Positions 38,338 through 62,045 of a stretch of 64,000 bases of DNA are shown here, one piece after another. Location of the stretch: positions 12,650,263-12,714,262 of the forward strand of contig CM119264.1 in NCBI GenBank assembly GCA_051294375.1, in the 5' to 3' direction. Below the pieces are notes generated by a model. The model was not told the DNA's origin and did not search any database. It saw only the letters and a program-made list of their open reading frames with translations. The stretch is from Paraspadella gotoi (Eukaryota; Animalia; Chaetognatha). The stretch's first letter is position 1, and each line of letters begins with the position of its first letter. Made by a program: the position numbers and the translations under genes.

Positions 38338-40619
38338 TCAAAAATGTGAGGCGACTCTTTCCATCTCCACAATATCGTCCACTACAGCATCGACGGTTGC
38401 GCCGATCTTGCGGCATAGTTCCTGCCGCTCCGTGGAACTCATGAACAAAAATGTAGACAATAGTTCGCCGTCGAGAATGTTCCTAAGGAACAAAGTAATT
38501 TTAAATAATTTACAAATAGATTAGAATAAAATTAATAATTCAGATGAAAGATTGTTTTTTCTCATTCTTTAAATCCATTCATTCTTTTTCTTTTCTGTTT
38601 CTTATATATTTATATTTATATATTCATATATTTATATTTATATATTTATATTTTCATGCCATTCTTTCACTTACCGGTTAGGATTTTGTAAGGCCCTAGC
38701 TCCTTGGGCCACTGTGCGAAAAGCCTTAGGATTCAAACCCGCCAAGTGAGGCGAATGTTGATTGAGAATATTTTGCAGCATTAGCAGACGTCGGTAAACT
38801 TTCTCGCCGACGGGAAGGAGATGGCCTAATCCGCCGTCAAGTGTCGCGAACATTGTCACGTGCCGTCGATCGAACTGGGTCGAAATCTTGCGTTCGGTAC
38901 TCAAGGCGTCGGTAGTGCGGCATCTGGTAGACCAAGGGGGACGGGGAAGAAAGGAAAGGAGCGAGAAGTGAATTGGTGATAAATGGGAGTAATTAAGTAA
39001 ATAGTGATATTAAAAAAATGCAGCAATTAAAAGGAGGGTAAAAGTAAAAGAAGAGACGCTTAGAAGAAAAGGAGAAAATTTAAGATTGACAAAATTTTTA
39101 AAAAATTTGAAAGCCCACCTGATTCGCCACAATGTCGTGACATGACTGCCAAGATTGAAATCTGCCCTGCGTACCAGGCGTTGTCCACCAGCACTCTCCT
39201 TAGCCTCCGGCTGGTACATAAAGACCACGAGATTTTGGAGAGAGTCGCTAACGAGAAAGGCGAGGCTCGCGTTGTCGACGAGAAACTCCGCGGAGTAGAC
39301 TTCGAGGGGCTTTACGTCTCGAGCCACGAGGGACAGATTCTTGTGTTCAGAGGAGTATCTTTAAAAAGAACGGGATGTTTGCGGGAATAGAACAGACATT
39401 GTTATCTGGTTAATGAAATGACTATCAGGAATTAACCTACCGAATTAAAGCAACGCTTTTGGTGACATCTCCATAAAGGATGAAGTTCTTGACCGTCACC
39501 AGAGTGTGAATATAGATCTGAGTGTCAATGAAGGCGATACCGATAAGATCGTCAGATTTAAGTTCCCAAAGGATGATGCGTTGACCGATGTTTGTCACTA
39601 GGTAACCGTTCAGCTGAGAATTGTCAAATCAAAATGTCAAAATGGATGCCCAACACTAAATATTTTTTGTACTTATTTACTACCAATAAGTAAATAAGTG
39701 TATTTTTCACTTAGCAACCTGCGCCAACGCCGTGACCGGTCCTTTTTGTTCTTTGTCGTAAACGGTCTTTACTTTGGTTCTCGTTAAAGGTTGCCCAGGC
39801 TCCGGGACAACCTCGATGAGATCGAGAATAAGGATACGCCCCCGGGAGGTACATTCCTCACCGTAGCAGTTGGTGGTACCGACGACGATAAAGCCCTTAA
39901 GGCCTGAGACAGTACCAGTGTCCTAAGAGAATATACGAGACGTTTAGATTTTGACTTCCTCTTAAATAAATATATAAATATATGCATATGAAAAAAAGAG
40001 AAAGAAATGATTAAAAATAACAAAAATACAGGAAGGTCCAGCTCTTATGGAATAATAAATAATAAAAAAAGACTATATTTAGAAACTAGTTTAAATTTTC
40101 TTTTGATTGATATCAAAAACGTCTGGAAAATCCAACAGCAACTACTGTAAATGATGCTTTTTGTATAACATGTCGAAATTCCTTACAAAATTGAAGAAAA
40201 TTTTGGCGATAATCAAGATAAAGGATGGTGACTTTTGATTTTTGGCCGCGCAGTTTTTCTGATTGATTGATAAAAATGTAGGATACAGAAGCAGAATATC
40301 CCACGCATCCCCTCGAGAACTGTCGACCTTCTGACAGTAATAATATGGACAGAAATGACAGCATTCCCTACAGGCGCAGTCTCAAAAGCAAATGCCACCT
40401 TCTCTGAACACTTAGAGGTCAAGGTTACTGAATGTGAATCTTTTTAATTGATTGTGTTATCATTACAACTTTTTACAAGTGTACCAATTATCATTTGATT
40501 TCTTTTTTATTTACCCGTCTAAACAATTTTTTTTAGTCCCAAAAGAGCTGGACCTCCCTGTAGTAGAAAAGTATGGGATTTGACAACACCAAATTTAGTT
40601 AATTATAATAATAATAATT

Positions 40620-40650
<31 letters not shown>

Positions 40651-43600
40651 TAATAATAACATACTTTGAGGGAAACGTGTCGCATGCAAGTGGCGTTTTC
40701 CCAGTTGTCCAGCTCAAGTTTGGCATTGGGAATGGGGTCCCAGTTAAGCGGAGAGAAAAAGGAAATTGAGAACTTGTCAACTGTGGGCCAAACGTATCGG
40801 ACGTCTTTTTGTTGAGGTTCAAACTCCCTGTCCTCGCCAGTTTGGCGGACATACTCGGTTACGGGTTCCTTAAATATGCATGAACGAATTAGGAAATTTA
40901 ATAAAAACATTCTTTGATCATTTATTAACTCACTTCTGTGCTGAGGCCGACGGCATAAATCTTCGCAACAGGATGGTAAACGATAAAGTGTGGAGTGCAC
41001 CGCAGAGGAATCTTACGGATCGGCCAAGGATTGTCGTAGGAGAGGTGGGTCGGAAGGATGCAAACCCGAAGGTCCCCCTCACGGTTGAAGTAAAGAAAGC
41101 CAGTAGGACAGTTAACGTTGTCAAAAGGAGCAAAGCATGTTACGCCGCCGTCTTTGGAGGGTAAAAGGGATGCAAGAGGCGGGTGGGAGAGGAAAAAAAA
41201 ATAATGAAACGAAAAGAGCAAGAACATCTAATAAAAATTATTACCGTTTTTTTTTAAAGGCTAAAGGTAATACCTACTCACCTACATTCATAGGGTGCAG
41301 CCGAGGAATGCCTCTGATCGTAATGAAAAACCAGAATGGGAAAGTGCCGGCGATGAAAACCCCTTCATAGCCAGACACGTTAGAGAAAGGTCTTAGCATC
41401 CGCGTCCACGTCCTCGTCTCCGGATCTACTGGACGAAGCCCTCGACTCTTTTTCCGGTCGCGCAAATTGGAATCGAGGAGAACCTTGCGAAATCTGGGTT
41501 AAAAAAAAATAATAGTAACATAGAAGGAAGAAACAAGTATGGCAGAGAAAAAAAACCCTGTAAGTATATAAGTATAACAATATATGTATTATATATAATA
41601 TATATAATATATATAATATATATATAATATATGTTCAAGATAATTGCTTATTAGGGTGTAGTGACGAAAAGATTGAGCGAGGGAACAATGTTTTTTTGCT
41701 GCTTTTGTATATGTAATAAAAAATAAGTCCTTTTTCAAAAGAAATTTGCATAACAGTATCATTAAATGAATTTTTTTTATAGTAAATCTTATCTTATAAA
41801 ATCATAAAATTTTAAAATCATATTTTTTTTAATTTTAAGAACATTTTCGGATTCACCGGAAAAAAATGGAAAACTTTTGTAAAATATGTTACATGATATT
41901 TTTAGGTTAAAGCTGCGAAAAATGACCAAAAAGTTTCATCATATAATAGTGGAGAATTTGACCTTTTTTTTCATTTTTAACGCTGAAGACATTGAAATTT
42001 TCAATAACATATTTTATATTTTTGATCTAACTTTTTATGAAGAATCAGAATTTCTAATAAAAATTATTAAAAAATTATTTTGAAAACTTATGATTTTATA
42101 AGGATATTACTATAAATATATTATAATTAATGATACTGTTCCCAAACAATATAAGCAAAATATTTTTTGTACTCCTTAATCATATCTAAATCTAAATATC
42201 CTTGTTTGTTAACTCAAATAAAATTTATGTTCCCCAGTGCTCCACTCTATTGCTTATGGTCTAGCGTATACACTGCGGCACAAAAAGTAGCCTCTTGTTA
42301 GCTTTAAATACCCCCACTATTTTTTTTTAATTTGAAAAAATTATTTATGAAAAGTATTGCTTTTTTAAAAAGCTACCGATTGATGCAAAATAAATTAATT
42401 GGTTCAGGTAACAGATTACTGCAATACTTTGAAGTCAGAGTCTGAAAATAGAATTAAGAAAAAATAATTTTTGAAAATTAAGTTGATACTTCTTTTTTTA
42501 ACTGATGATAAAAGATTGCTTTTCTATCAAATTTCCTTACTTTTCCTGACTTTTGATGACTAAAAAATATTTTGTACTAATCAATTTCAACGTCCTATAA
42601 CTTTTGAACGTTTTGCTCAATTTTATTGAGACTTTGACCAATTGCTTCATCTTTCAATATGCTTTGTTTTATATTTTTATATCTTTATAAAATTGAACCA
42701 TCCAATATGGTTTTTTCCATTTGAAAAAATGGCTACTTTTTTTGCGCCGCAGTGTACAGTCATGCCACTTAATTTCAGACTTTAAAAATCACCATATATA
42801 CTTGGGTTTTTAAAAAAAATTTTAAAGTTAATTAAAGTTTATTGAAATATAATAAGTTTGGTATAAATTATATTAAAATCGGGCATTCCGTTTAGGATAA
42901 GTTATTTTTAAAAAGAAAAACGGCTCCTTACAAATATGTTTTCAGATAGAGGGATGAGTCTATTTCACTGGATTCCCCCATTACTCTTCCCCATTCTCGC
43001 TCGAGACACCTTTTCTTCTTCCTCTTCCGCCTCTTTTCCTCCCTTTCCCTTCCTCCTCATCGAGCGACGACAGAAGGAGCAAAGAGAGAGATTTTAGTTC
43101 TGTCTTGGGTTCTACTTCAGCTCGCGAGCTCCCTCTCAGAGAATATACTTTTTTTGCCTATTTTTTGGACTTTTCCTTTGACTTTACTCATAGAGAGATA
43201 GAGATGATGGACCTACCCATCAGTTAGGTTTTATATCATAAGAAATACCAAACCTATACCTTTAAAACCAATTATCATTAAACTCAATAGAGTTTACGGT
43301 ACGTAGCTGAGCTTATGTTCATCCTTAAACCTATTAAGTTTTTTTATAAATACTTCGGAATCATCATCTAATTTGTTCATTCATGAATTACTTCCATCAA
43401 TAATAAGTGATCCATTTAAAAGCTAAGTCCTTTAAATAAATTCAGTTCGAGCAAATTAAAAATGGCATATTAAAAATTGAATCACTGTAAATGAGTCTAA
43501 ACCTATGGCTTGAACATTTTTCATTCTAATAACAACCTAAAAGTTTTTGAAAATAAAAGACACATTCAAATATATTGTTTTTATTACATGAAATCAACAA

Positions 43601-46600
43601 CCAGATTTGATATTTCATTCTGTAATGTATTTGCCTACATAATCCCACAAATTTTACTAGAGCTGCGACTTCCTTTAACAGAATTAAGCTGATCAGCGCT
43701 TTTAGCTACATTTACTTGACCATCAGAATCTGAGAGTCCACCACGATCGAGTTGAATTGAATTCAAGATCGTCGCAGTCAATTTCCATTTAAATGTGAGG
43801 TCCTTGGTAACTCCGGGGCATAAGTCGGTTTCCCGTTTGTGTAATTCATCCCTCATGGAAATATCTAACTCTGTCAAAACCGTTTTGTTAGTGCCCGAGA
43901 TCAAAGCAGAACTATTGGTGATTTCAGTAACATTGGGTTGGCTGGCATGTTCGCCACACAGCCACAACATCTTTCCTGAAGGTAACAAACAACGTTTTAG
44001 AGAATAAAAATCTTTTTTCACTAGACTCATAACAAAAGATCGAAAATGTAAATAAGAACTCTTGAAGTAGTCGGATTTATCATCATGTGAATTAACTTCT
44101 GAATTAGACACTTTCAGCGTTTTCATGATTGAATACATATATAAAATAACTTTCTTGGCATTTTCACCTCCTAAGCAATCAATATCAACACATGCCGTTT
44201 CAAGGATGCTATAAATTTTGGCTAAATAACCTGCAGAATGCGTCAAAACTCGTTCTTTTTCTTCAAAGGACATGTTATCAACATTAATAGCTGTAACCAC
44301 ATGCCAACCATGTTCATTTTCACATAAAAATTTTACTTGCCATGTGTTTTCAATAAGTACCTTTACACTGAGCGTAATGTCAGAAATCTTTAAGTCAAGC
44401 AAGATGAGAAAAGGGAGAATTATGTCATCTGCAGAATATTTCACGATTTGTCGCAAAAAACGCCGTTGTACAAGCTCTTTAACTTCGAACAATGACTGAA
44501 TCTGATTATCACCAGTATCACCCAGGGAAAAACTTTGATTTTCCTCGGGATTTCGAATGTTACATAATTTTTCAGCCTCCATTAATAGATTTTTCAAGGA
44601 AAGTTCTGAACCTTGACGCATGTCTATCAAAGGAGCCCTTGCCTTGTTTAAAAGCAACATTCCTGCCTCCGTCTGCAACCAAGAATCAGAGGTTCCAACT
44701 AGCACTGCAATTATAGGTTTACCCAAATTAATAATGGAAAATCTGAGTTCCATCATACAATTACTGCTTTCTGCATATTCCTTTGAAACGCAAACCAGAA
44801 CCATTTGGGCATTCTTCATACCTATTGCAATATCTTCAAAGAGACCTTGTCTTCCTGCCTGCTCAATGTCAATCCAACATGAAAGCCCAGATTTTTCTAA
44901 AAATTTTTTTAATTCCCTTGGATCACTATTTTCATTAGCAAGCGCTGTTTCAATCAAAGGTGTACCCTTTTTAACTGCGTCATGACTATTGTACCAGCAG
45001 TAAGAAACAAATACCTTCAATTTAGAATTTTTCACAATTTGCGTAAGCCCCTCTAATTTGAGATTAAGCTGTTGTTTTAGCTCCAAAACTTTATCATCAA
45101 AAACATTAGGATTGGAAAAATTTACATAAATTTCTTGCCCGATGACAAGACCAAAGTCAGATTTTTTCCAGTTCATATTAGTATCAATGAGTACAACCAT
45201 CAATGGTTTTTTTAAAAATCTTCCAGCATATGAAAATAATTTTTGACAAAAATCATCTTTTTCATAATTGGTAGAAACCATCATCATAAACAACTTAGTA
45301 TGTTTGATAGATAATAAAACTTCTTCGTAATCAAGCTGACTTGTTATTTCTGAATACCAAACTTTGTAGCCCCATCCATTTAACAGTTTCTGCAATTTTG
45401 GAGGACAAAGATCATACTTTTCAGTTAAATCAAAATTGCTAAAAGATAAAAATATATCTGATTCAAGTTTACTTGTTAATTCCTTCATCTCATATACGGT
45501 TTGCTCAAACTGCAAATCAAAGTCAGAAGCACTTGAAGTTGGAAGAACAGCTTTTAACTCAAGCATAGAAATAGTATGAAAATGCTTCTGACACTGTAAA
45601 AATGGTGCCCTAAAATCTATCGCTTTTTGAACGAGTTTTTGGGAAAACATGGCAGGATCGTATGTAAATGTTTTCATACAATCAGGACAAGGCATTGAAA
45701 AATCATACACAACTCCAAGAAAAGATTCAGCAACCAAATTTTCAATTACTTCATGGAAAAGTAATATTAGGTTTTCTGGCCGAGGTCCCCGCACTTTTGC
45801 TTCTAACTGATTTTGTTTTTGTTCAATTAATGCTACCAACCGATTCTTTCTCAACAATGTTCCTCTTTTCCAAATTTTAGAATCATCAGCGAATTCACTT
45901 AGACGAACTTGTATCCGATTAAATAATCCTGGTGGTAAATATTCAAAATGATAAATAATTTTAGAACGTTTGTAATTGGGTTCAGAAACGTCAGGCCAGT
46001 CCAAGTCAACAGGGCAGGATTCCGGCAATAAACAAGGAACTATGCTCATTGATTCTTTAATAACCTCGTAGGTTAAATCAAACTCCTCAGTTAACTTTAA
46101 AAGCCAATTATGCATTGCTGGGTCATAATTTTTCCATATTATTGGTAAGTCTCTGTGATATAATCGACCTTGCTTAATGGGACTGTCTTTGACAGATACA
46201 ACACATGCCATGACATCTACAATCCATTGTGGATCTACAACAAGAATATTTTTCAATAACTCTGTATCAAAATACTGGACAGAACCTAATTCATGTAAAA
46301 ACGAAATCGCCTCTTTTATATCTTTTTCTTCAAAAATACCAACCTTGGCAGCTTCAATCATTACATTTTCCCAAGTAATTGTTTTAGTTATGGTCCTCTT
46401 TGATACAATGATCTTCTCTAAATCTAGGTAAACACTCGGGACTAACTCCCCCATGTATTTTTGGTGTAATGTAACTTTAATTAACTCATCTCTGAGTTGA
46501 GATATTCCCTGTCCAGTTATAGAACTAATGAAATAAAATCCGATGATCTGAGGAAATTTTTTTTTAAGTTTGTCGATAGGAATTTCAATGTTGGAAACTT

Positions 46601-49600
46601 TGTCACAATGACTACCAACAATAAAAATTGGAGTTTTTGGCGCATGACACGAAATTGAGCTTAACCAAAACTCCAATCCCGCGTGTTCATAACCTAATCT
46701 AGTTGTCCACAGCAAAAAATATACAGCTCGAGAGGTCAGAAAGAACTGATGAGTATTATAATAAACAGTCTGACCAGCAAAATCCCATGCACTGAAGCGT
46801 AATTCTCTGCCTTCTTCAGACATAACTTTCCATTCCACAATATTAATTCCATCTGTGATTTGTTCCTGGTCAGTTCCCATCGTTCGGTTGGTACTACTCA
46901 TTAGAGCACGCAAGAGACTAGTTTTTCCTAAACGAAAAAATTGTTTTTAAAGATCTATGAAAGTAGTATTCACTATTTATTTTATCGCCAAATTATGTCA
47001 AATAAATAATTATTATTATCTCGAACATGTTTTAGGCGCATTCAATTTCTTAATTTTTTAAAATGTTTATTCGCATGCGCTTATTGCAAAAAGTGGTTAA
47101 AATTCACTAAAAACATGTCTGAAGTTTGGTTTTATGAAAAAAGTATAAAATCTTTCAATTCCCATTAGAATTTGTTACAATATACTGAAGAGGTGGTAAA
47201 AATTGTTATGAGTTAGTGACAGAAACGTTCAACATAAGCAGTCCCTGAGCTTCGGATCAGGCTGTAACACCATGTTACAGGCGGATTAAGCGCCCCGTCA
47301 CTCTTAACTGCTAGGCAATTATCTGGCTAGAACCCCGGACCTTTGGGTTGGGAGGCGAATGACTTGCCTCCTGCATCAAAAGCCACTGATGAACGGTTGG
47401 TGGATTTTTTAGTATATTTTTTAGTATATTTTCACCAAACTTACCGCTTCCACCCAAACCAACTAGCATGAGTTTTGTCCTCTGACATTCCACATGACCA
47501 CCATTGAGTCGTCGCAAATAAGCTTTGATAGCCTCGAATCCTCGTTTAATGATTTCGATTGGTGGAGTTTTCAACGACGGGCAATGGGATACATTGAAAG
47601 TGTTTAGTAATGATAATCCTCCAAGTTCATATGTAATTGTGTCCAAAAAAGGATTGTGATGTAAGGACAGTTTTTCTAAACTTTCAAGGTTACGGATTTC
47701 GTTGGGAATTAAAGAAATAGATTGATATGAAAAATCCAATATTTTAAGCTTTTTCAAACAAAATATTTCGGGTGGAACCGAAGTGAATCGGGGAGTAGCG
47801 AAAAACAGTTCCGAGTTCAACAAAGCACCCTCTCGAGAAGAAATAATTCCATTCTTGTTAATATCACACAAATTAAAGAATGAATGGACGTTGGTGAGAT
47901 TAGCTAATGCGCAGTTACATTTAAGAAAATTTTCGTACTTTTCTTTTGTAAATGTGACATCGAATTCGCACCACTGTATTCCAGAAATATTTAGTTGTTC
48001 AAGTTTGAATAACTTTTTAAAAGACTCGGGTAAAATATTTAGCGGATTTGAAGACAAATCTAAACTTGTAAGATTAGATAAATTACCAATATGTTCAGGA
48101 AGAATATTGATGCAGCAATTAATTAGACTGATTTGTTTTAACGACTTACAATTGATGACACTTTCTGGAAGTACTCGTAAAGGAATATGTCTACATATAA
48201 GGCAATGCAAGACGGATGATAGACCAATATCAGCGGGAAGAAATTCAATTGCAGCTTCGGTTCCTCTATATTGGATTATCTGAAAAGATTCCAATTCAGA
48301 ATTACCTATTTTCGGTATAAATTTCAATTCAGAAAAAGGATTTAAAGCAAACTGATGAAGATTTGGAAATAACTCAAAAAAATCGTCAGGTAAATTCTGA
48401 CTTAAAGTACCAGTCAAAGTAATATCCACAATAGCTTCCGCATGCACTAAAAGGTCAGAAATTACTAATGATTCTGGAAAAATCGAGGCTGATGCCAGCA
48501 TGTGTGAATAGCAAGGTGTCGGACCAGAATCCTCTCTTTTAGAATAATAATAATTTTCATAGGCTTCTTTTTTTGCTAACAAAGAAAAGTGATGTGCATA
48601 AACATTAAGTATATTATAATTAACAAGCATTGTCTGTTTCTGTGTCAATTTATGAAATGAACTGCAAATAACTGGTTTGGACCTAAGCATTAGGGTCAAA
48701 ATTATTACCATTGAAACAAGATCTGGCGGCACATCATCAAATTTAATTTGTTTATTTATGTGTAACATTGTATGATTTTCCGATTCTTGATCATTTCTAA
48801 TATAAAAATATGTATATATACAGACAGGAAAGTAACTGTTTACATTAAATAGGTCATTTAATAAAACCGAGGAAGATTGAGGGAGCGGGAACATAATTTT
48901 ACAATCTTTATCTTTTAATCTATCAAGGAACCCAAACCATATATCTTTAGGTTTAACAGAAAAAACTGATTTTTTCCACATCCAATGGGAAAGTGGTAAT
49001 AATCGACATCCAACTTTTTCAAAGCATTCCAAAGGTAATTTAATCAGATTTGATGTAGTATTTTCAATTAAATCTGGGAATAACTTAACAGGAACTTGGG
49101 CTTTTTCGAAATATTTTGATTTTGATACAGATTCTTTAAATTGAAAAGGAATTTGAGGAAACTGAAATAAATGCCTCATATTCTTTTTACTACTATTAAG
49201 AAAAATGATGGAATATTGGGTATCTTTTAAGAAACCTTGCTTTGTTAAAGTACCATTCACACTTACATTTAACATACAAGGATAACTTATGGTTTCATAT
49301 TTTTCTTCGGTCAGCAATAATTTTCTAGAAGGATCTTTATCTTTAACGCACTCAAAGGAGTGAGAATAAACTTCTTCTTTTGATAAATCACTTAATTTAT
49401 TTAAGTCGAAATCAAAACCTGCTTTTAAAGTGTAAATTAACCAAATTTTTTCGGGAACATTTTGAAAATTAGAATCTATTTTTACCACTAAATTGCATAA
49501 GGGTTTGATAACCCCAAGAGGGGGTGAGACTGTTACCAGGGTTTTATCGGGAACTCGAAATTTGAAAAACATGTTTTGAGCAGATTTATTCAATAACTTT

Positions 49601-52600
49601 ATCTCACCCCACATATTATTTTTTTTACCTGATAGTAAAAGAACTTTTTCCGTTTGTGGTGTTACAAGTACAGGACCTGGTAATACTGCTGGTACTGGTT
49701 TGAAATACCTCAACGTTTCAGGACCATTCCAAGAAGGTAATGCAGATATGGAAACAACAATAGAAGGCCCAGGAGCAGCATAAGGAAAATACGCACATTT
49801 ACAATCTACTGACAGCGTTTCAATAAGTTTCCCATTCACAAAAAAATTAAGTTCCTCATTATAAAAATCTAAAGTACATTGAATCACGTCCTCCAGAGTT
49901 AAACTGATATCGTAATTGAATAAATCGATCAAAAATTGTTCTGATAACAATGAATTATCAATAGGCAATCCTGGTTTCAGCTTTTTAACAACCCCAATTA
50001 AAAGTTTGCCTTCAGAGTCTGTCACACTTTTTATGACTAATTTATAAGTATTACATTTACTAGATAATGGCCATCTTCCTTCAATGCAAGTATCAGATAT
50101 TAATAAATCATCAAGAAATTCTTGTTCGAATTGCCATCCTTTTAATTTTAACTTGCCGTTTTCTATGCCACCTGGGTGAAGGGCAAAAGAAATATCAACC
50201 CTTCCATTGTTCTCCTTAAAAGTATATTCATTGTTAAACTTGGTCAAAATTGACGGTTCACTTGCAACGTCAATAAAAGTTTGTAAAGACAATGAGGGAA
50301 TTTCTTCTACATCTGGAAAAATCATGTAGGAACTCGAGAAATCATTACTGACTAAAAATATTTTAATCATAGAATCACTAAAATTGTCCACATGGAGCGT
50401 TACGTTTCTAGTCGTTGAAAGACTGAATGGAATATCATAATACTGAGCAAAAAAATTATCAGTATTACTTAAATTATAAAAACTGCAAGGAAATCCACCA
50501 AAAAAATGTGATTTTAAATTCCAAAGCGTATATGCACAACTTTTGCAAATACCGCAATCGCGACAGGTGTACGCTGCTCGATTGCATTTGCATCTTTGAC
50601 TTTGGTGACTTAAAACTCGCGAGTATTGGCAATTCTGATCAAATGCACAATGTCCACCAAAAGTACAATTTGTAATAGATTTACTCAGTACCCAACGATG
50701 GTTTTTAACGATTCCATGTAAACCATCTGGAAGTACTATAAATTTTGATGAAAATGAAGAATCTAAATCCATAAGAAGTCCATCAATAATTTCTTTGCAT
50801 AATGAAAAAGCAGTCCAAAAATTCTGTTCTTGAGGCGTCAGCTCTGAAACATGCCCCGGACTATTAGAAGGATTGCTTTCATAAATTTTTGTATGAGCAA
50901 TTAAAAATACCTCGTCATTTTCAACTTTAAGTGCAACCTCTATTGAGCCACAATGAAAAATTCCAGCATTTTTGTCAAGATTTATGAAATTCATGATCTG
51001 GGAAAAAATAGTAACTATTAAAGAAAAAAAATTCAATGGCAACCTTCCATTTGAACTATATTTAATTTCTTTAAAAAACTTTTTATCATAATCAATAAAA
51101 GCAAAATTTTGTTCTTTTTCTCTCTTCCCTAAAAAATTTAACACTCTGTACCTTGGTTGCGCTAAATCAGTTCGCGGACATTCGACCTTTGACAAAATGC
51201 CACACAGAATCAGGACTTCATGAAAGTGATGATAATCTAGATTATTTTCGATGAAATCATGAAAAAGCATTGAACAAGCCTCTTTCTGATGAAAATATTC
51301 AACAAGATCGCAAAAGTCTGCAATTTTTCTCACGTAATGATGCGATGAACCCGATCTTAGTACGTAAATCAAATTGTGGGACTGTAAAATATTCAGAATA
51401 GCCAGGATAGAATTATTAGGATATTCAGCATTCAATAATTTACCAAAATCATCATCGGAAAAGATATTTCCGAGATGAGGTAAAATGTCAAGAGAAAATT
51501 TTAACACAGGCTTCCAAAATACTAATTTTTTTAAAGAACCTAATTTTACACAGAGGAAATCTAAAATGTACTTGGCATCTTCAACCGTCTTTAACGTCAT
51601 AGGCTTTGTGTGAATTAAATCTGAGATTAGCTGATAAACACGAAGGTCAAAGTCTGTTTGGCGGCACTTCATTGTTAATTCTTTTGAGTCTTCTTTAAAA
51701 TTGATAATGGTCAAAAAATATTCCTTAAGAGAATCGAAAATGCTCGAATTTTCTTCTGGACTATCAGAACCTGTCTCAACGAGCATCAAGCTCAAAGGAA
51801 TGTCTCGAGCCGTTGATGAAACATCACCTCCTAAAGTTGAGAGGATGACGGAATTCATGGAAGAATTCAAGGAAATGGCGGGATGCAATCCTCCGCCAAG
51901 ATAAAGAAATGAACCTTCCCAAATTCTCAAGCCGTTCAAATTGAGGAACAATTCTATTTCCGAGCCACAGAGCAACTTCTAGACATCGTTTTAATAATAT
52001 TTTATTTTTTATCCATAAATAGCTCAGAGTAAAGTTAAACTTATACTAAAACACAAAATTTAATTTTTGGTTCCCCATGGAACCGGGGTTCTTTATGGTT
52101 CTTCCCCACCAACAGAAGAGCATCTGCTCAGCAAAACGCGACATCTCCAGCCAAAAAAACGAAAAGAGGATCTCATCCTCTTCCCCCTCCCCTCCACTAC
52201 CACAGTGCGCAGCCACGAGACAATCACTCGTAACCAGCAAACCAGGAGGGGGAATCCCACTTGACCGGATGTCGTAGAAGGGGGGGGATGAGAAGTCGCA
52301 AAAACCAGTCCATGGACGAAACCGAGTCTGGAAAACTTGTCGGCCGGACGAGGCAATGGCCAAAAGAGCTGTCGGGCGATCAGTTGGCGTCCTTTAGCAT
52401 TCCTGAAGCCCTAGGGTGTGCCAANNNNNNNNNNTTGGCACACCCTACTGAAGCCCCACCCTTAAGCTTGGGAGGCGGGAAAGACTTGCGAGGCCTGTAG
52501 GGATGGCAAACAGGATTACACGGACTGCCACGCCCATGCTAGCAGAACAGGCGCAATTGTGTCGTGCCCTGGAATGGAAAAGCAAAGAATGCATCGCTTG

Positions 52601-55600
52601 AGTGATGTCTGGAACGGTCTCCAAAATTAAACGCTGTGGAAGGCGGAGAACTGGACAGAACTGTCTTGAGATCCAAAGGGGCAGCGTTGACTACCATGCG
52701 CTGAGACTCGGAGAGAGCCGTGCCAAAAATTGGCGCCAAACCTGACGAGACATCTTGGCAAGATCGAGGTAGCCTGCGTCGACTGCACCAGGCCCCTCTG
52801 AGCGAAGAGCCTCGACCATGAGGCGGAGAGCATCAGCGACAGACAGCATGAGCGGATGCTCCGGCGTCTCTCAGGATGCGCTTCAAAGCCATGAAAGGGC
52901 GCGTCATCTTGGAGTCCTTCCGAACGGCGTCTAAGCAGCAAAACTCTTGAGCGGGAGGACAAAACTCCACCAGAGAGAAAGCTTCCGACCAACGCTTGGT
53001 GCGCGCATTGGCGGAAAACACATCCCACAATGGCAGGACATTGTCCGGGTCGACTGCGCAAGTCTCTCCACTGGCTCAGCAGTCAGCACCCACTCCAAAG
53101 GCATGACACAAAGTTGTCAAACCCCTGACCCGACTCTTCTAAGGAGGAACCCTCCTCAGAGGCGTCATCTACTTGCGCTGATCGAGCTTGACAAGGAAGG
53201 CCCGACCCAGACACCCCCTCGGAGCATGAAGGCCAATCCGCCGCCAGAGGCCGCCAGTTGCTGGCGCTGTTGCTGGCGTCAAAACAAAAACCGACAAAGA
53301 AAGGTACAGAATGGCAAACAGAGGCGTCAAAAAAACAAGGAAAAAAGAGAAATCATTGAAAATAATAAGTCTAAAAAAAACCAAAAACAAAAACTCCACC
53401 CAAAATGAGAACAATCGAGCTTGAGCTTGAGCTCGAGCTCGAGTGGGTGGCTTTTAGTGGGGAAGAACCATGAAAAATCCCGGTTCTATGCGGAACCAAA
53501 AGTTCTATCATGTAGTTCTTCCCCACCAACAAGAGCCTATAATGAGACAGGCAAAGGCCCGACAAAACAAAAAGCCGAGTTAGGTGGGGCACAGGAGGAA
53601 AACCCCTCTGTAGACCAAATGAACGGCAAAAAAAGGCCTCAGCAGGGAGACTGAGCGCGGACAGAAGAAGTGATTCTGTCTCGTGGCTGCGCGCTGAGAT
53701 AGTGGAGGGAAGGGGGAAGAGGAGGAGATCTTTTCATTTTTTTGTCAGGAGATGTCGCGTTTTGCTGAGCAGATGCTTTTCTGTTGGTGGGGAAGAACTA
53801 CATGATAGAATTTTATATCTCGTAAATCATATTAGCGGTTAAAATGAGAGCCTATGAGAAAAGAGGAAAAAAGACGCAAGCAACAAGACAGATACATATT
53901 ACATATTTATACATAAGATAAAATAAGTTAAGATAAGTTTTCATCCGAAGCTTTCATTCTCAAGTTTACAGTAATTTCAATATAAAATAATCAGTAAGTT
54001 AACCAGAATGTTATTAAAACGATAACCACTGGTGATTTTCCTTTAGAATAAAATCCGAGTTCGATTTCATCTCCCGCGTTAAACAAATCAATTTTATTCT
54101 TAAAGTCCTTTAAACTCTTCGCGTTTTTTGCGCCGCCCATGACGTCAAAACCAAAAGATGCATCAGTCGTTCCGGGAATTAACTCGAGAGGATGAGATCT
54201 GGGAACAAAGCCGACGACTATGGCGTTCTCGACTTCCCTCTCCACAGAAATAATCTTAATTTTAAAGCTTTTTTCCGAATGATCATTAAGCGAAGACGAT
54301 GAAACAAAGACTCCAGGTTTTTTATCGGGATTTTTACATTGTTTTAAATAATATTCCTGCGAAATCATCGAAGTTTCTATGTATCTGTACATTGGTTCAG
54401 GGGCCCTAGAGTCGTCGGAGACCGCGGGGTCGTAGTAATTTAATATTCTTACTCGTTCACCCTGACTATTTAAGCTTATCATTGGCAGTAGGCCCAACTT
54501 TTGACTTCCGTCCGAGGGGCTCTTGAAATATTCGCCACGAATTCGCATTCGATGAATTTCCACGCTATTTAGCGTAAAAAAAACGTCTAAACCAGTCATG
54601 CTGACGTAATCTGGAGAAAGGTGGTTGACGTAACAACCTATAATGTCTCCTTGGCGAATTCGGGGCGGATTCACAACTGGGCTTTTTGCTTTGTTACAGG
54701 GAAAGGAAAACCCACTTATGTGAATTCTACCTTCTGATCCGTGATAACCGATGCACCCATGTTCCGTACCCACTGCCTTGTTTTCTGAGCATTCGAAGAA
54801 GCCCAAACCTACACAAATATTCCCTTTTTCTCCTAAATCCATTACTTCGACCTGGAAGCCACTAGCTTCTGAAGTTAAAATTCCGTTGGCTTTGAAGACG
54901 ACGGGTTCAACTGTTGTTCCCATATCACCGAATTCTCCATCTGGTAAAAGATACGAGTGCAAGGGAGAAAAGTATCCATGACTCAAAAATCTCCAATTCA
55001 GGAGAGGGTTCTCAATTACTTTGTCTCTTTCGTTCATTAGGCAAAAAATGTCCGTCAGAAATGTATATAGAAATAAGAGAAGTGGATTTAACTTCTCCAT
55101 CTTCGCAGTCAACTTTTCTATTTCGCTAAATGGGAGACGAGCTTTTTCAATCGTGGCCCTCGGAATACTAAAAATGTCGCAATATTTTAGTTTCGACAAA
55201 AACTCGTCAGCAATGTCATTGAACCTCGTCAATGCGGAGATTCCCAAGAGCTCCAGGCAAGCTCCGACCAGGCATCGGGACTCTACGCTCCATTTCGACG
55301 ATATCATCTTCGTCAAATTTAAGATCGGATTCTGAAAAAGCGGTGAAGTAAACATTTTGGCCGCGCTGTGTATAGTGTTAAACATCTTGAGACAAGCATT
55401 ATAAAATCCCTTTTCGCCTCTCGGTGCTGGAAAGTCCAAGAGCGTGGCTGCGTTAATTATGCTAGTAACATCCCTATCCGATTTCATGAATTGAAGGTAA
55501 GGAAACAATCCCGAATGATGATAGAAAAAAGCATGCTCCTCCACAACTTGGTCGCTTCGCTTCCAGACCAAAGTGAGGTTTTGACCCGGAAGTACGGACC

Positions 55601-58600
55601 CATCGAGATTGATCCGGTGGCCACTGGACACGATTCCCACGCTAATGAGGTCTCCTGCGCTGCAAGGAACGCCCGAGGCCTTGTTCGCGTCCGATTCTTT
55701 TAACGACGACGACCCAGAAGAGACTCCAATTTTTATTGACTTGCTCATTACTTTCTTGATCCGGACGCGAAAACTTGAATCAGAATTAGAAAGTGATTGC
55801 AGAAAATTGCAAAGCGGCAATTTGGCACGTTGTGAAGAACGATTCTGAGGCAAGAGCAATAAGTGACCATCTAAGGTCAAAACCAAGTTCCCACAGAGGG
55901 CCGAGTAAAATTGTTTTGACACATGTGCCAACGTCGATGAGGCTTCTCGGCCCTCTTTTTGGAGAATCTTCAGCCTGTCGACATACAATCTGGCGCATTT
56001 TTCAACATGCTGTGCAGCGCCACTTGCTCCGTCTGCAGTAAGATCCACGGCAATGATAACGTGATCAGGCGGCGAGGAGACGACGTCATGTAGTACGGAA
56101 TCTAGGGAGGCTTCCACGACATCTAGAGTAAAAGGCTGTAAGGCATCGTCGCCATTGCATTCTAACGTTGTTGATTCTGTGTCGTGTCGCTCCGATGTCA
56201 AGTCTTTGGACTGTAATGCCTTTGCGACGGAGTGACGGACGTTCGAAGAGGGAATAACTAAAACGTATCCACGACGGGAAATAAAAAATCCTTCAGTGTT
56301 TTCTTGTTTCTCAACATCCTCGCATTTCTTCTCATACCCCAGCAAAAAGTTTCCGCGTATCTGCTTTTCCCGGCTGACTGAAAAAGGTCGATAGGTCAAT
56401 CCAGTCAACGGCATACGCAACTCGCAAGTTGGCGGACAAACTAGAGACAAAGCGTCCCAGGCGTCGTTGGTCAGACGGAGACATCCGCAAAAGTCGATCG
56501 TCGAAAGTTTTGACGAGTCGCTTAGTTTTTCGCACAAGGCATAGACGCCTATGTCGGTGAGAAAACCAAGGCCGCGAAGAAGAAGGCGACGAAGATGCCT
56601 TTAGAGAAAGAAAAAGCAATAGAGATAGAAAACGAGAATTTGCAATTAACACTGACGAACTAACGCTAATATTTTCTTAAAGTTTATATCAAACAACCCA
56701 AAATATATCTTTAAAATAAAACAAAAGTAAAACCGACCTTAAATCTAATGCGTGTCTCGAAAGAGTCCTGATCGCCGCATCCACGACACGCGGACACCGC
56801 GAGCGAATTTCGACGACGATCTCCTCGCGAACGACGCATCTCGATGCTAAATTGTCCAGGAAGTCGCCGAAGGCGATGAGGGGAAAGGCGAAGGGATGGG
56901 CAGAGTCTGCGACGACCTTGTCGAGAGGAAAGGTCTCCGTTTCCAAAGAACCAGGAGAGGAAGTGCTTTGTAGCAAAAATCGAATGTTCCAGTCCTCGGG
57001 TGGAAGGTCGACACCGAAGGTAGCGTCTTCGCCTTCGTCTTCGACGTCTCTCTGCTTCCAAAAATCGCGTTTATTGATGTCCTCTAAATTTTCAGCTAAG
57101 GGAGGCGGCGACGGCCGCTCCGGTCCAGAAGGGAGTTTGAGAGAAAGCTTTGAAGTATTCATTTTATAAAGCACATTTTTTTAGCTGGTAGATTCCGAAT
57201 AACAAAGCCCATCATCCAGTTGCATACTGTAAAGCACGTTGAATCAATTCAACCCGCAGTTATTTAGTTTATCGTAGATTACTTTAATTAATTTGGCCAC
57301 TAGTTTGGTTAGCCTTTTGATCCCGCATTAATTAACACAAAGAGCGAAATAAATTTTCAGTGGGAATTACGGATTTTGAACTCTGTCGCCAAGGGAACGG
57401 AAGAAATCTTTGCGTGTCGAATTCCAAATACGTGTTGTGTAAAATAGGTTAAGGCAAAGCGAAAACCGATGTCGAAAAAAAACCCGCTATCCAAAAATCA
57501 TAATAAACGGTCTTGTCTCATCATGCCTCATCCTAGCTAGAGCAATTATATTGACTCAATGACAATTTAATGAATTATTCCTGAACCCTATTAATTACCT
57601 GATCTTTAGCCTTCCCCCGGAAGCCATGGAGTGTTGATGGAATGGGAAGCATTCGTAAACAACCAATTCGTCCTCCACTCGCGCCAGGAGATAGGGTTTC
57701 CGACCGCCGGCGCCCAATCCCGTCAAAGCTAACTCGGAGATTAGGGGAGTCTCCTTTTGAAGCATTTGTTGCTGGTATGCCGCCTTTTGGTTGGTGTGAT
57801 CCGGCACTTGAATTGAGATGGAAATTTTGAAAACGGTTGAATGTTATGTTGGAAATGTTGTAAAAAACTGAGTAGTATTGATTGCTACGCTTTTAACTTG
57901 AGGTAAGTAGATTTCTTTATTTGTGAATTACGCAAACCACCAGTTAGACATCTGATACCTAATTCATTCACTCACCAGGGGCAGAACCGTGTTGGTCGGC
58001 TAACACTCTCGGACGCAAGGAAAAGTTTTTTACGGCATAACAAAGTTTAAAATCGGGCATTGAATAGAATTCCAGTGCCCCATTTTCGCGACCTATCGCT
58101 GCCCACGCCGAGCGCCGGGCCGGTCGAGAATGCGTCGCCGGTTCCGGCGATAGGGGATTTCGAAAGTTGGAATCGAGGGGAGGACGCGAGCCGGAGGTAG
58201 AGGGTTTGGAGGAGGAAGAGGAGGATGTCCCATACAGAAGAGCCTCTTCGTCTTCATCGCCGTCGATATCGCTGTAATGAGTCGAGTTGAGTAGAGGGTC
58301 AAAGATAAGGAGAAAGGTAGATCTTGTGATATTGTCCAACTGTCCTTCCCTCCCTCGCTCCCAACTTACTCGGCCTTTGCCTCGCTTTTGTCGAGCGACA
58401 GCGCGGCTGCCAAATCCGCCCCAACGGCGGAGAGAGTGGAATGTTCGGGGAAAGGGTCGACGGTTGGCGACTCAGTGGTGAAGAGGCCCGAGGAGTCGAC
58501 GAAGGCACAAAGGGCGACCACCTTGGACGGCGGATGCTGCATCAACGGCGCGCGACGTACGGTGAGGTGAGGACCAGAGTCGTCTTCGTCAGAGTCCTCG

Positions 58601-60864
58601 TCGTCGGCGGCGGCGGGGGATTCGTCTAAAGGGGTAGTTAACATCAAGTTAAAGTTAACGGGCAATGGTCTCAAATAATATGAAAAATACGTCACCATGA
58701 AAGGTTAGGGCGACTACGACTCCCTCTTCCGTCATGACGAGAAGATATGGATCGGCAATGGAAGCAGCGACAATTGGCGATCCCACGTCAAAAGGAATAT
58801 GTTGGATCTGTTGGACACCTTCCAATAAACGTACGGACATTGGAGATACCTGAAAAATATTACAAACTTAAGGAACAAAATAAAACTTTTTTATTTCAGC
58901 GTAAAAAAAATTCAAGTGATTCAGACTTAATTATTAACAGAACAAACAATTTTCCTCAAATTTTCTCGATTTAACTTTTATGAATATTTATTTCCACCTG
59001 CACAATGAACTTGTCGCATCCAATATTGCCGGCGAAAACTGTGGGACCTTGTGTAGCGAACCCCGACTGATCCAATTCCATGATCTCTTGACCAGTCTGT
59101 AAAACCATAGTTCCATCCTCTCGACCAAGAATGAGAAAGGAGTGAGAGTCCTCCTCTCCTTCGCCGCTCTTGGCCTTGAGCGTCCACATGTCAACGCATC
59201 CTGGAAGCTCGAAGGTGGTCACGACCTACACAACATTTTTTTTACATACCTCCATAAAACCGCCATACCATAACAAATGTTTTAAGTATAAATGAAACGG
59301 TAAAAATTATGAAGACTTGAATAGTTTCCTGACACTTACCTGAGGCCTGACAGCACGCTGCAGGATGGTCAGTGCGCCGTTTTTGCCATGTCCCGAAGTG
59401 AGAACGAGCTCGAGATCAGGAGAATCGCTAGATTCAAACTCTTCGGAGAGAAAGGGTGGCTCTCCAATTGTCGAGTTTCCGCAGGGACCGATGTTCAAAA
59501 TTGAGTCCGACACTTCGAAGTTGTAGGTGGTGATGGTTTTTTCCTTCGGGATATAATAGAAGTAAAACTAAAAACCTAACTCACACTCCCTAAGTTCATG
59601 CTGTTCAATTTTCATGCAATAACCTTGCATTCGAATAAAAAGTATAGCCAACCTTTTCCTCGATGTTTGGGTAAAAGTCGAGGTCGTCTTCGTCGACCTT
59701 TTCTTTGCGATCACCGTCAACTGGATCGTCGCCCGCCACCCACTCCCCCATCAAATCTAGCCGTTTCCGTTTTCCTGGCGGCTCCTCTGTGTTGTTTCTT
59801 CGACTGGGTACGTAGCGAGAAATGATAGGGGGAATTCTTTTATTATTATATATTATGTATTATTATTTTTAATAATAAGTCAATCATTTTAATATCCGAT
59901 ATAAGAAAACTTTTTATCCATCCCTTCCAGATGATATGAGAGAACCGGTTTGACATAATCTGTCAATCTGTCAATTCGACTGCAATTACCGGCGCTGCAC
60001 TAGATTACACGAGTTGATAGGCAAGTAACTTAATCACTTTACCTCTGCCCCTGGATGCTAGTTCCCAGGCCTAACGAGACGTCAGCGGAGGCCGTCGAGC
60101 TTTGATCTCCCTTTTCGACGTACTTCAGGAGCAAAGAATTACCAAGCCGCGATCCCAAAAACAAAAACCCGTTTCCGCAAACCTGATTGAAATTGTAAAA
60201 ATTTTCGCATTGACCTTGATCAATATGATGGTCATCATTCCCATATAATCTTTTTTTATTTATTTTTTCCATCATCTGAATTTACAGACAGATTGTGAGC
60301 TTCTTCATCTTCAATCGTTCAAGTTCATCACTCCAGTCACCATTCATCGCGTTGATTTTATGTACAATAAAAAAATTTCGATGAGGTAATTTAATTAAGG
60401 CAGTTTTTTTACCGTCATGCAAGTGGTGAGGACAGAAGCGGCGGCTCGATCGAAGTGAAATCCCTTGACAGCCCGCATTCCGTCGAGAAGCAAAGTGATC
60501 ACGTAAACTTCGCCCGTCTTGAGAGACACTGCAAGACGGTCGAAGGCCAAAAACGCGGCGTTGGCGCAATCTAGGGAGATCTTGACGTTCTGACCTAAAT
60601 ATGAAAAAATCTCTTAATTTTAACTTTTAAACGCAATGTGGAATTTAAACCCGCGTTCATTAGCTAACCCTGATTTTGTAAGGGAAAGTTAGTGTTTCCC
60701 TTGGTCAATGAATTGAGCGAGACTCCAAAAGGTGGGACACTTTGATTAAGGTACAGGAGCGAGTTAACAGCGAGAATAAGGACGCCGCCGATGGGTTTTG
60801 GTACAGGGAGGACACCGTGGCAATCGAATGGGAGGGAGGAGATCGACCAGATGATCGGGTGAAC
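38338..60864 (-). CDS. CPSF1: Cleavage and polyadenylation specificity factor subunit 1 (CPSF160), partial; N-terminal ~280 aa lie beyond the window
   Basis: [62 protein letters not shown]-like, [25 protein letters not shown]-terminal NILDGELL...VASHF*. About 20 GT-AG-bounded exons. AATAAA follows the stop. Confidence 0.96.
40029..40560. mobile_element. Tc1/mariner-type MITE in a CPSF1 intron
   Basis: TA|CAGGAAGGTCCAGCTCTTATGG ... CCAAAAGAGCTGGACCTCCCTG|TA terminal inverted repeats. Confidence 0.8.
42271..42754. mobile_element. Tc1/mariner-type MITE
   Basis: TA|CACTGCGGCACAAAAAGTAGCC ... GGCTACTTTTTTTGCGCCGCAGTG|TA. Confidence 0.8.
43580..43585 (-). promoter_or_regulatory. Candidate poly(A) signal of the nested Roco gene
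   Basis: Minus strand CATGTAATAAA (UGUA plus AATAAA) ~50 nt after the stop, followed by a GU/U-rich tract TGTGTCTTTTATTTT. Confidence 0.55.
43635..57162 (-). CDS. Giant Roco-family protein (~3,607 aa): LRR - degenerate Roc/SPRY repeats/COR - SPRY - MSP - LRR with EF-hand - Roc-COR - TIR - TIR - C-terminal domain - CaaX; nested in a CPSF1 intron
   Basis: Exons 57162-56738, 56598-~54027, 51978-47445, 46927-43635 total 10,824 nt with compatible phases. P-loop GLGGSG|KTS is split by intron 3. [68 protein letters not shown]-terminus CGIM*. Confidence 0.88.
47237..47312 (-). ncRNA. Twister ribozyme-like fold, type-P5 permutation (family 2), best-preserved copy
   Basis: Minus strand: [P5 AGCAGUU]-AAGAGU-GACGG-GGCGCU-UAA-UCC-GC-[P3 CUGUAACA UGG UGUUACAG]-[P4 CCUGA UCCGAAGC UCAGG]-[P5' GACUGCU]. 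T1 CGG/CCG, T2 GC/GC. Predicted cleavage 47288|47287. Confidence 0.72.
47237..47400 (-). mobile_element. tRNA-derived SINE-like element family 2 in Roco intron 3
   Basis: Minus-strand head CAGTGGC...GCCTCCCAACCCAAAGGTCCGGGGTTCTAGCC (tRNA-like, B-box-like). Homologous to 62046-62168. Confidence 0.65.
52064..53814 (-). mobile_element. Internally deleted DIRS1-like (tyrosine-recombinase class) retrotransposon
   Basis: Imperfect ITRs at ~52098-52228 and ~53669-53798. ICR at 53457-53531 is complementary to both termini. TTTT at both junctions and no TSD. Decayed gag-like ORF and possible RT-ORF start on the minus strand. Confidence 0.82.
52412..52447. mobile_element. TIR DNA-transposon ends flanking an assembly gap, inserted in the DIRS element
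   Basis: TAGGGTGTGCCAA-(N)10-TTGGCACACCCTA with a 9-bp direct repeat CTGAAGCCC at 52403-52411 and 52448-52456. Confidence 0.75.
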
Positions 60865-61947: not shown

Positions 61948-62045
61948 GTTCGTTTCAAAGAATTTATGATTGCTATGACGATGGTGAATTTGAAATAGGG
62001 TGAAGACTGAAGAGACAGTTTAATAGTTATGAGTACTCAATATTA

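What the first reader, a model, noticed from the sequence alone, without database searches (positions are those of the whole stretch)
41494..57598. 13.5-kb gene nested on the same strand in a CPSF1 intron, placing a poly(A) signal inside the polyadenylation-factor gene
Seen: CPSF1 ...LKI(AG|gtaatt 57598 ... 41494 cccag|A)FRKV joins in phase across 16,105 bp, while its other introns here are under 1 kb. The Roco gene lies inside on the same strand and ends with UGUA-AATAAA-GU/U elements. Known: same-strand nesting is less common than antisense nesting, and 3'-processing factors such as CstF-77 and PCF11 autoregulate by intronic polyadenylation. Inference: CPSF1 transcripts must skip four coding exons, a PAS and a possible ribozyme. 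This could give feedback control or CPSF1-Roco chimeras; the phase-2 CPSF1 donor matches the phase-2 Roco exon-2 acceptor at 56598.
Basis: partly seen in the sequence, partly recalled or inferred. Interest (0 to 1): 0.72.

Follow-up and report, generated by a model that had tools for sequence, protein, structure and literature searches.

The report
Large Roco gene nested inside CPSF1
An intact gene for a 3,606-residue Roco-type protein sits on the same strand inside a 16-kb intron of the essential polyadenylation gene CPSF1, and it is likely an unusually large but ordinary nested gene that the host splices out, with no sign so far that it regulates CPSF1.

Summary
The nesting is real. CPSF1 joins in phase across 57598-41494 and aligns end to end with known CPSF1. 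Inside, on the same strand, four exons give an open 3,606-aa SPRY-LRR-Roc-COR-TIR protein of a conserved invertebrate subfamily; 9 of 12 listed variants are synonymous. A DNA contig from another study spans the 5' boundary. A spliced RNA contig leaves CPSF1 exactly at 57599 without entering Roco; another covers Roco exon 4 and, by inference, skips Roco intron 3. The far joint (41493) and the 3' boundary were not observed.

Corrections: the intron holds a 10-N gap, so 16,105 bp is nominal. The next CPSF1 intron upstream is at least 3.1 kb and holds an antisense ZIP exon.

Feedback is unsupported. The donor is strong (8 of 9 U1 matches), unlike CstF-77's; the PAS lies 14 kb away; no chimeric joint is listed. 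The 'ribozyme' is probably a twister-like motif in a repeat of roughly 10^4 copies.

Best reading: two separate transcription units, a known arrangement, unusual in size and in its essential host. The scan's notes held nothing on this.

The parts
57599..60864 (-). CPSF1 upstream exons visible in the window (10 exons, about residues 251-900); the last is 57806-57599
   Evidence: six CT..AC joints in RNA contig X9
41494..57598 (-). CPSF1 host intron, phase 2, 16,105 bp nominal; donor 8 of 9 U1 matches; acceptor CAG with pyrimidine fraction 0.79
   Evidence: X9 record 30 leaves at 57599
38338..41493 (-). CPSF1 downstream exons (8 exons, about residues 900-1451, stop at 38340-38338)
57163..57598 (-). 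436-bp spacer between the host donor and the nested ATG; inferred promoter/5' UTR of the nested gene
   Evidence: promoter function inferred, not shown
56738..57162 (-). Roco exon 1 (ATG at 57162); residues from about 80 on align with homolog N-termini
54030..56598 (-). Roco exon 2 (SPRY region); 3' end may be 54027
51979..54029 (-). Roco intron 2; weak splice sites; 17-bp inverted repeat 6 nt inside each end; holds a repeat element (about 52053-53814) with long inverted ends and internal complementary segments
   Evidence: high summed depth
52425..52434 (.). 10-N assembly gap inside the repeat element, flanked by a perfect 13-bp inverted repeat
47445..51978 (-). Roco exon 3 (4.5 kb; MSP-like region, LRRs, first half of the Roc P-loop)
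47225..47400 (-). High-copy repeat in Roco intron 3; its part 47311-47238 folds as a twister-like motif (predicted cut between 47288 and 47287)
   Evidence: not called by Rfam
43635..46927 (-). Roco exon 4 (Roc, COR-A, COR-B, two TIR_2 stretches; stop at 43637-43635)
   Evidence: X9 record 25
43580..43588 (-). TGTA/AATAAA poly(A) signal 50 nt after the Roco stop
61689..61940 (+). First coding exon of a ZIP-family zinc transporter gene, antisense, inside the next CPSF1 intron upstream
   Evidence: Pfam Zip E 8.9e-6, below the curated cut-off; Atlas ZIP/ZupT clusters at 0.94; CPSF1 1-250 absent from the window

Best explanation
An intact four-exon Roco gene lies on the same strand inside CPSF1 intron 57598-41494, and it likely works as a separate transcription unit, with an inferred promoter in the 436-bp spacer and its own poly(A) signal, while CPSF1 transcripts likely remove the whole stretch as one intron. 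The host probably manages this because its own sites are strong (donor 8 of 9 U1 matches, CAG acceptor with a good pyrimidine tract). The nested exons are very long (2.6, 4.5 and 3.3 kb) and two of the three nested acceptors are weak, so they would be poorly defined in a host transcript. The gene probably arrived by insertion into a previously short intron, possibly as a reverse-transcribed copy that later gained introns; that origin is inferred and untested. Shown: layout, open frames, domain content, 5' boundary in an independent sample, spliced CPSF1 RNA leaving at 57599. Inferred: the landing at 41493, splicing of Roco intron 3, the separate promoter, use of the PAS, the origin.
For: Host: in-phase join, collinear with CPSF1 homologs, including the 78%-identical P0121, which reads across the junction. 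Nested gene: open 3,606 aa; Pfam SPRY, LRR, Roc, COR-A, COR-B, TIR_2; 164 homologs at E<=0.001, of which 120 listed. Five HSPs (P0004, P0007, P0021, P0044, P0088) cross the exon 2/3 junction that holds the gap. In a Roc-COR tree it falls in a 32-leaf clade holding 26 of the 27 SPRY-labelled hits (support 0.94). Of 12 listed coding variants 9 are synonymous, against 22.7% of possible changes (P 1.8e-4; 17 table rows hidden, no transition correction). DNA: X5 record 16 (another study) runs unbroken from 55957 to 58854 with 1 difference. RNA: X9 record 30 is spliced and leaves at 57599. Record 25 ends its laid piece at 46926, the exon 4 edge, with 647 letters left; bin sums fit their continuing in exon 3 (predicted 10.36 and 12.30, observed 10.3 and 12.3). 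Splice-site scores. Intron poverty: 3 introns in 10.8 kb against about 50 expected at the host's density. A second gene sits in the next intron. Parallel nesting is reported in flies, mammals and a ctenophore.
Against: The joint 57599->41493 and the 3' boundary were outside the laid stretch, so neither was seen in RNA or in independent DNA. X9 is one run, labelled RNA only by guess, and contigs drop rare isoforms; 14 joints were hidden. No promoter or start site was shown. The Roco exon-2 acceptor is as pyrimidine-rich (0.84, AAG) as the true host acceptor (0.79), and the Roco intron-3 donor is good (7 of 9), so the nested sites are not uniformly weak. Record 30 is 16,573 nt, far longer than a CPSF1 mRNA, and unexplained. 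In Drosophila, multi-exon same-strand nested genes are depleted in essential hosts (PMC3814207), so some cost or interplay is plausible. No relative's genome was available for synteny.
Confidence: 0.75

Rival explanations
1. Feedback sensor: some CPSF1 transcripts are cleaved at the Roco PAS (unspliced, or after a 57599->56598 splice), more often when 3'-processing activity is high, which caps CPSF1 levels as in CstF-77 and PCF11.
For: A canonical PAS lies on the sense strand inside the host intron. The chimeric join would be open for 4,136 aa. The 56598 acceptor has a strong pyrimidine tract. Precedent in other 3'-end factors (PMC3708835 and PMC6428223, abstracts), and nested genes can cause cryptic polyadenylation of hosts (PMC3192792, abstract).
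Against: The host donor is strong (8 of 9), the opposite of CstF-77's weak site. The PAS is 14 kb past the donor and is explained as the end of Roco. No chimeric joint is among the 15 listed. The phase match is about a one-in-three event and would drop conserved exon 1. A second CPSF1 intron also appears to host a gene. Conservation and responsiveness are untested.
Confidence: 0.1
2. Shared transcription: Roco has no promoter of its own and is cut out of the CPSF1 primary transcript (leader trans-splicing at an acceptor in the spacer, operon-like), so each Roco mRNA costs one CPSF1 transcript.
For: Only 436 bp separate the host donor and the Roco ATG, with two acceptor-like sites at 57382 and 57184. 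X9 record 30 is much longer than one mRNA, as if neighbouring transcripts run together. Trans-splicing and parallel nesting co-occur in a ctenophore (PMC8527503, passages).
Against: No leader or trans-splicing evidence was seen. Joining the host donor to the two spacer sites gives a stop within 1-5 codons. 436 bp is enough for a promoter in a compact genome (own knowledge). Merged contigs also arise from overlapping UTRs, and a contig across two genes shows no single transcript.
Confidence: 0.11
3. Assembly artefact: the nesting comes from a misjoin at the N gap or at repeats near the 3' boundary.
For: A 10-N gap inside a repeat with a perfect inverted repeat around it. No independent record spans the 3' boundary, and no listed piece spans the whole stretch.
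Against: Both genes continue in order and in frame across the gap, and homolog HSPs cross it. Each side of the gap separately joins CPSF1 exons to Roco exons with no gap. X5 spans the 5' boundary.
Confidence: 0.04

Closest known systems
Same-strand (parallel) nested intronic genes of Drosophila, mammals and Hormiphora (PMC3814207, PMC11694760, PMC8527503)
   Same: A whole protein-coding gene inside one long intron of an unrelated host, same strand, intron-poor, with repeats nearby.
   Different: Much larger and more complex than usual: 10.8-kb CDS and 4 exons, against a median CDS of 817.5 bp and 72.5% single-exon for same-strand nested genes in Drosophila. The host is a core gene with otherwise short introns.
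Autoregulatory intronic polyadenylation of CstF-77 intron 3 and PCF11 (PMC3708835, PMC6428223; abstracts read)
   Same: A 3'-processing factor gene with a very large intron that holds a sense-strand poly(A) signal.
   Different: Strong rather than weak donor; the signal closes a separate gene 14 kb downstream; no truncated host isoform seen; conservation and feedback untested.
SPRY-LRR-Roc-COR-TIR proteins of molluscs, nemerteans and annelids (e.g. P0011 Owenia, P0004 Babylonia, P0014 Crassostrea)
   Same: Length 3,600-3,900 aa, same domain order, about 37-46% identity over the exon-4 region, same clade in the Roc-COR tree.
   Different: N-terminal two thirds only 20-30% identical; the homologs' gene structures and neighbours could not be seen.
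Twister ribozymes of Schistosoma mansoni retroelements (PMC8501958, section 17 and passages)
   Same: Core strings in the published order (UAA, GC, a CUGUA-led P3, an L4 ending AAGC); both pseudoknots can pair; sits in a mobile repeat.
   Different: Circularly permuted, P1 minimal, one mismatch in P2; below Rfam detection; activity untested.

Membership tests
Same-strand nested intronic gene | Whole gene lies within one intron of a host, with no exon overlap | tested here: met
   57162-43580 lies within 57598-41494
Same-strand nested intronic gene | Host exons on both sides belong to one gene, in frame | tested here: met
   collinear with P0123 and P0121
Same-strand nested intronic gene | Host mRNA joins the two flanking exons | tested here: inconclusive
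   X9 record 30 leaves at 57599 and has no listed piece on Roco; the landing site lay outside the laid stretch
Same-strand nested intronic gene | Nested gene is intact and makes its own processed RNA | tested here: met
   open frame; 9 of 12 variants synonymous; a separate RNA contig breaks at the exon 4 edge, with intron 3 skipping inferred
Same-strand nested intronic gene | Own promoter / start site | not testable with these tools
   contigs cannot show starts
CstF-77/PCF11-type autoregulatory intronic polyadenylation | Large intron with a sense-strand poly(A) signal in a 3'-processing factor gene | tested here: met
CstF-77/PCF11-type autoregulatory intronic polyadenylation | Weak 5' splice site on that intron (CstF-77) | tested here: not met
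   8 of 9 U1 matches, among the three best of 17 donors (a simple count, not a trained score)
CstF-77/PCF11-type autoregulatory intronic polyadenylation | Truncated host isoforms ending at the intronic site | tested here: inconclusive
   no such joint among 15 listed, 14 hidden, one run of contigs
CstF-77/PCF11-type autoregulatory intronic polyadenylation | Intron size and site conserved across species | not testable with these tools
   no genome held; two metagenome scans found no relative
CstF-77/PCF11-type autoregulatory intronic polyadenylation | Site use responds to the level of the factor | not testable with these tools
   needs a perturbation experiment
Roco proteins | Tandem Roc and COR domains | tested here: met
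   Roc E 1.1e-17, COR-A 2.1e-28, COR-B 4.8e-23, all above curated cut-offs; the P-loop is restored across intron 3
Twister ribozyme | Match to an Rfam twister model | tested here: not met
   no hit at E<=10 on either copy
Twister ribozyme | Core strings plus P2, P3, P4 and two pseudoknots can form | tested here: inconclusive
   45 of 51 cells pair over two copies, both pseudoknots fully; P2 has one mismatch, P1 minimal, no two-sided covariation; structure drawn by hand on these copies
Twister ribozyme | Self-cleavage at U-A | not testable with these tools
   needs an in vitro assay

The most novel reading that the evidence does not exclude
The Roco gene has been co-opted as the terminator module of a CPSF1 feedback loop: CPSF1-initiated RNA is spliced or trans-spliced into Roco and cleaved at the Roco PAS in proportion to CPSF activity. 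A nested immune-type gene and the polyadenylation machinery would then trade expression one for one, with a twister-like motif in the same intron as a second cut point.
Probability: 0.1. Interest if true: 0.72.

Novelty: new member of a known kind. Interest (0 to 1): 0.34.

Why it matters
As it stands, this is an extreme example of a known arrangement: a 13.5-kb, four-exon gene inside an essential gene on the same strand, the class that selection disfavours in Drosophila. It offers a natural test of how a short-intron spliceosome skips whole genes and their poly(A) sites, and a warning for annotation, since gene finders would probably split CPSF1 or fuse it to Roco. If CPSF1 transcripts did end at the nested site in a CPSF-dependent way, it would extend 3'-processing autoregulation to CPSF1 by a new route, through a captured gene. 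I saw no such report in the listings (25 of 25 and 20 of 275 papers listed; titles and abstract starts only).

Tried and rejected
No whole genome is held for this window, so no copy number, no 5' part of CPSF1 and no genome-wide nesting rate. Metagenome scans with P0121 (24 pattern matches, 0 confirmed) and with the exon after the intron (444 matches, 0 confirmed) gave no relative's locus. No holder is on record as RNA; X9 is RNA by guess, though its six CT..AC joints show splicing.

Not used as evidence, by the tool's own standard: X9 record 25 begins at 43549, 31 nt past the AATAAA, and X9 has no cover from 43200 to 43548 (one study, contigs only; compatible with use of the PAS); contig depths (177 for CPSF1, 3-14 for Roco), which cannot rank genes; low cover of Roco exons 3-4 in X5 and X6, and of 54280-59800 in X2.

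Rfam found no ribozyme in the window (only U1 at 6682-6844 passes its threshold), in 47100-47500, 41700-43700 or 61980-62200. The hammerhead core pattern gave 12 matches against 8.2 expected: rejected. ARAGORN found no tRNA, so a tRNA-derived head for the repeat is only a resemblance from memory. Minimum-energy folds of five candidate stretches were unremarkable (z 0.09 to -1.69).

The organism was not identified: P0121 is 51-56% identical to nearly all listed full-length CPSF1 proteins, and a literature search by taxon gave nothing useful. A search on Roco-TIR-SPRY proteins listed no paper on this subfamily (20 of 30 listed). Whether the extra length of X9 record 30 equals the neighbouring genes' exons remains open. 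Supplements of the papers were not opened.
Full report
Observation. The window encodes CPSF1 on the minus strand. An exon ends at 57599 before a GT donor, and the next CPSF1 exon starts at 41493 after a CAG acceptor; the join is phase 2 and reads KIR-FRKV. Eighteen exons from 60864 to 38338 give 1,219 aa without an internal stop, aligned as one HSP to bird CPSF1 P0123 residues 251-1451 (50%) and to the unnamed P0121 (78% over 591 columns), which reads across the junction. One downstream exon matches human CPSF160 chains at E 6e-32. The intron is 16,105 bp as assembled; the other 16 complete introns are 65-742 bp.

The window's only N run (52425-52434) lies inside this intron, so the length is nominal. 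And CPSF1 residues 1-250 are absent from the window, so the intron upstream of 60864 is at least 3,136 bp. It holds a ZIP-family exon on the opposite strand (Pfam E 8.9e-6, below cut-off; Atlas ZIP/ZupT clusters at 0.94) and a reverse-transcriptase-like frame near 64000-63080 (label from own knowledge). CPSF1 therefore probably hosts, or interleaves with, a second gene.

The nested gene. Four exons (57162-56738, 56598-54030/54027, 51978/51975-47445, 46927-43635) give an open frame of about 3,606 aa. Pfam finds SPRY, LRRs, Roc, COR-A, COR-B and two TIR_2 stretches. A search with exon 4 found 164 proteins at E<=0.001; the 120 listed are mostly from molluscs, annelids, nemerteans, rotifers and amphioxus. 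The model is collinear with the 3,600-3,900-aa members. Their N-termini align from Roco residue about 80-140, in exon 1, so the gene needs no host exons. Five HSPs cross the exon 2/3 junction that holds the gap. In a FastTree of the Roc-COR region (118 of the 120 hits passed a coverage filter; midpoint root) it is sister to Owenia P0011 (0.947) inside a 32-leaf clade holding 26 of the 27 SPRY-labelled hits (0.94). That suggests a spiralian host organism, which I did not identify. Of the 12 coding variants listed, 9 are synonymous against 22.7% of possible changes (P 1.8e-4); 17 rows were hidden and transitions were not corrected for, so this indicates purifying selection without measuring it.

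Reads. Nine of 11 listed runs hold the 5' region. Four were laid on 43200-59800; all are contigs. DNA run X5, from another study, has one 2,898-bp record from 55957 to 58854 that carries CPSF1 exons, the spacer and Roco exon 1 into exon 2, which confirms the 5' boundary. X9 (RNA by guess) has a record spliced at six CPSF1 introns whose last listed piece ends exactly at 57599, with no listed piece on a Roco exon. The acceptor at 41493 lay outside the stretch, so the landing was not seen. A separate X9 record covers 43549-46926, stops at the exon 4 edge and has 647 more letters. Bin sums fit their continuing in exon 3 to about 48090 (predicted 10.36 and 12.30, observed 10.3 and 12.3), so intron 3 is inferred to be spliced. 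No 57599->56598 joint is among the 15 joints shown; 14 are hidden and contigs drop rare forms. The 3' boundary has no independent support, and X2 may be the source sample.

How it likely works. Against the window's own U1, the host donor matches 8 of 9 positions, among the three best of 17; the Roco donors match 6, 4 and 7. The host acceptor has a pyrimidine fraction of 0.79; the Roco acceptors have 0.84 (AAG), 0.47 and 0.58. With nested exons of 2.6, 4.5 and 3.3 kb against 140-296 bp in the host, the simplest reading is that host transcripts pair their own strong sites and drop everything between. A strong donor could also protect against early cleavage (U1 telescripting, own knowledge). Roco would be made from its own promoter in the 436-bp spacer and end at its own signal; neither was shown. 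The nested gene has 3 introns in 10.8 kb, against about 50 at the host's density, and GC3 falls from 0.57 in exon 1 to 0.27-0.30 in exons 3-4, against 0.58 in CPSF1. Intron 2 has a 17-bp inverted repeat just inside its ends. These fit insertion of a reverse-transcribed copy with later intron gain, but the homologs' gene structures were not available, and another gene in the window has a 1.57-kb frame, so the origin is open.

The feedback idea. CstF-77's sensor intron has a weak 5' splice site, a medium-strength site, conservation across vertebrates and a response to factor levels (PMC3708835, abstract); PCF11 has a conserved intronic site (PMC6428223, abstract). Here the first feature fails and the others are untested. 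The motif is not rare: 92 AATAAA on this strand of the window, 21 with TGTA within 60 nt upstream, and 12 in this intron, most of which Roco's own transcript must pass. The chimeric join is open (4,136 aa), but a phase match is about a one-in-three event and the join would skip conserved exon 1. Nested genes can induce cryptic polyadenylation of hosts (PMC3192792, abstract), so some leak is plausible; I give a regulated loop 0.1.

The ribozyme. Rfam finds none. The best candidate is a repeat in Roco intron 3 (47225-47400; second copy 62037-62144), whose summed depth in X2 reaches 1.08 million against 105-115 on unique flanks, roughly 10^4 copies, though summed depth is a rough guide only. Its part 47311-47238 carries the core strings of the twister table in PMC8501958 (section 17) in a permuted order. 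With a hand-drawn structure, 45 of 51 cells pair over the two copies, including both pseudoknots, but P2 has a mismatch, P1 is minimal and there is no two-sided covariation. It is a fair candidate but a genome-wide passenger, not a feature of this locus.

Comparison with what is known. In Drosophila 71.27% of nested genes are antisense; same-strand ones are 72.5% single-exon with a median CDS of 817.5 bp, and hosts of multi-exon same-strand genes are less often essential (PMC3814207, passages). Mammals show only a slight orientation bias (PMC11694760, passages and section 5). Hormiphora has 2,357 nested genes, many parallel to the host (PMC8527503, passages). So this is a new member of a known kind, at the large end and in an essential host. 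The listings showed no report of a gene nested in CPSF1; only titles and abstract starts were seen. The scan's earlier notes held nothing on this genome and one unrelated case.

Verdict. Observation confirmed with two qualifications; interpretation partly supported. Best explanation: two separate transcription units, 0.75. Rivals: shared transcription 0.11, feedback 0.10, misassembly 0.04. Interest 0.34.

Noticed in passing
window 47238-47311 (-), second copy within 62037-62144 (-): Twister-like, circularly permuted motif in a repeat of roughly 10^4 copies; both pseudoknots can pair; missed by Rfam. If the family is active it would be a large set of intronic self-cleaving RNAs.
   Followed up: partly
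window 61689-61940 (+): First coding exon of a ZIP-family zinc transporter, antisense, in a CPSF1 intron of at least 3.1 kb; suggests a second gene inside CPSF1.
   Followed up: partly
run X9 record 30, laid at 57599-59800: The spliced CPSF1 contig is 16,573 nt, with about 5.8 kb before the first visible exon and 8.8 kb after 57599, far more than one CPSF1 mRNA: merged neighbouring transcripts or polycistronic RNA.
   Followed up: no
window 52053-53814: Repeat element with long inverted ends and internal complementary segments (DIRS-like layout; label recalled), holding the only assembly gap.
   Followed up: partly
window 51985-52001 and 54007-54023: 17-bp inverted repeat 6 nt inside both ends of Roco intron 2, which has weak splice sites; may be a transposon-derived intron.
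   Followed up: partly
window about 44740-44770 (-): The second TIR stretch of the Roco protein has a glutamate in a CMMEL motif where NADase-type TIRs have their catalytic residue (recalled); the first TIR stretch appears to lack it.
   Followed up: no
window 6682-6844 (+): Canonical U1 snRNA gene (Rfam 154.7 bits).
   Followed up: yes
window about 63080-64000 (-): Reverse-transcriptase-like reading frame of a LINE-type element, running off the window end.
   Followed up: no
window about 42270-42760 and 41752-42140: Two inverted-repeat elements between the Roco end and the host acceptor (the first seen by eye, the second by BLAST); probably small DNA transposons.
   Followed up: no
window about 3000-36540: Other genes judged by eye from translations (labels recalled, not tested): acyltransferase-like, SLC6-like, KLF-like, tropomyosin-like (+) and sphingomyelin-synthase-like (-), densely packed with short introns.
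   Followed up: no
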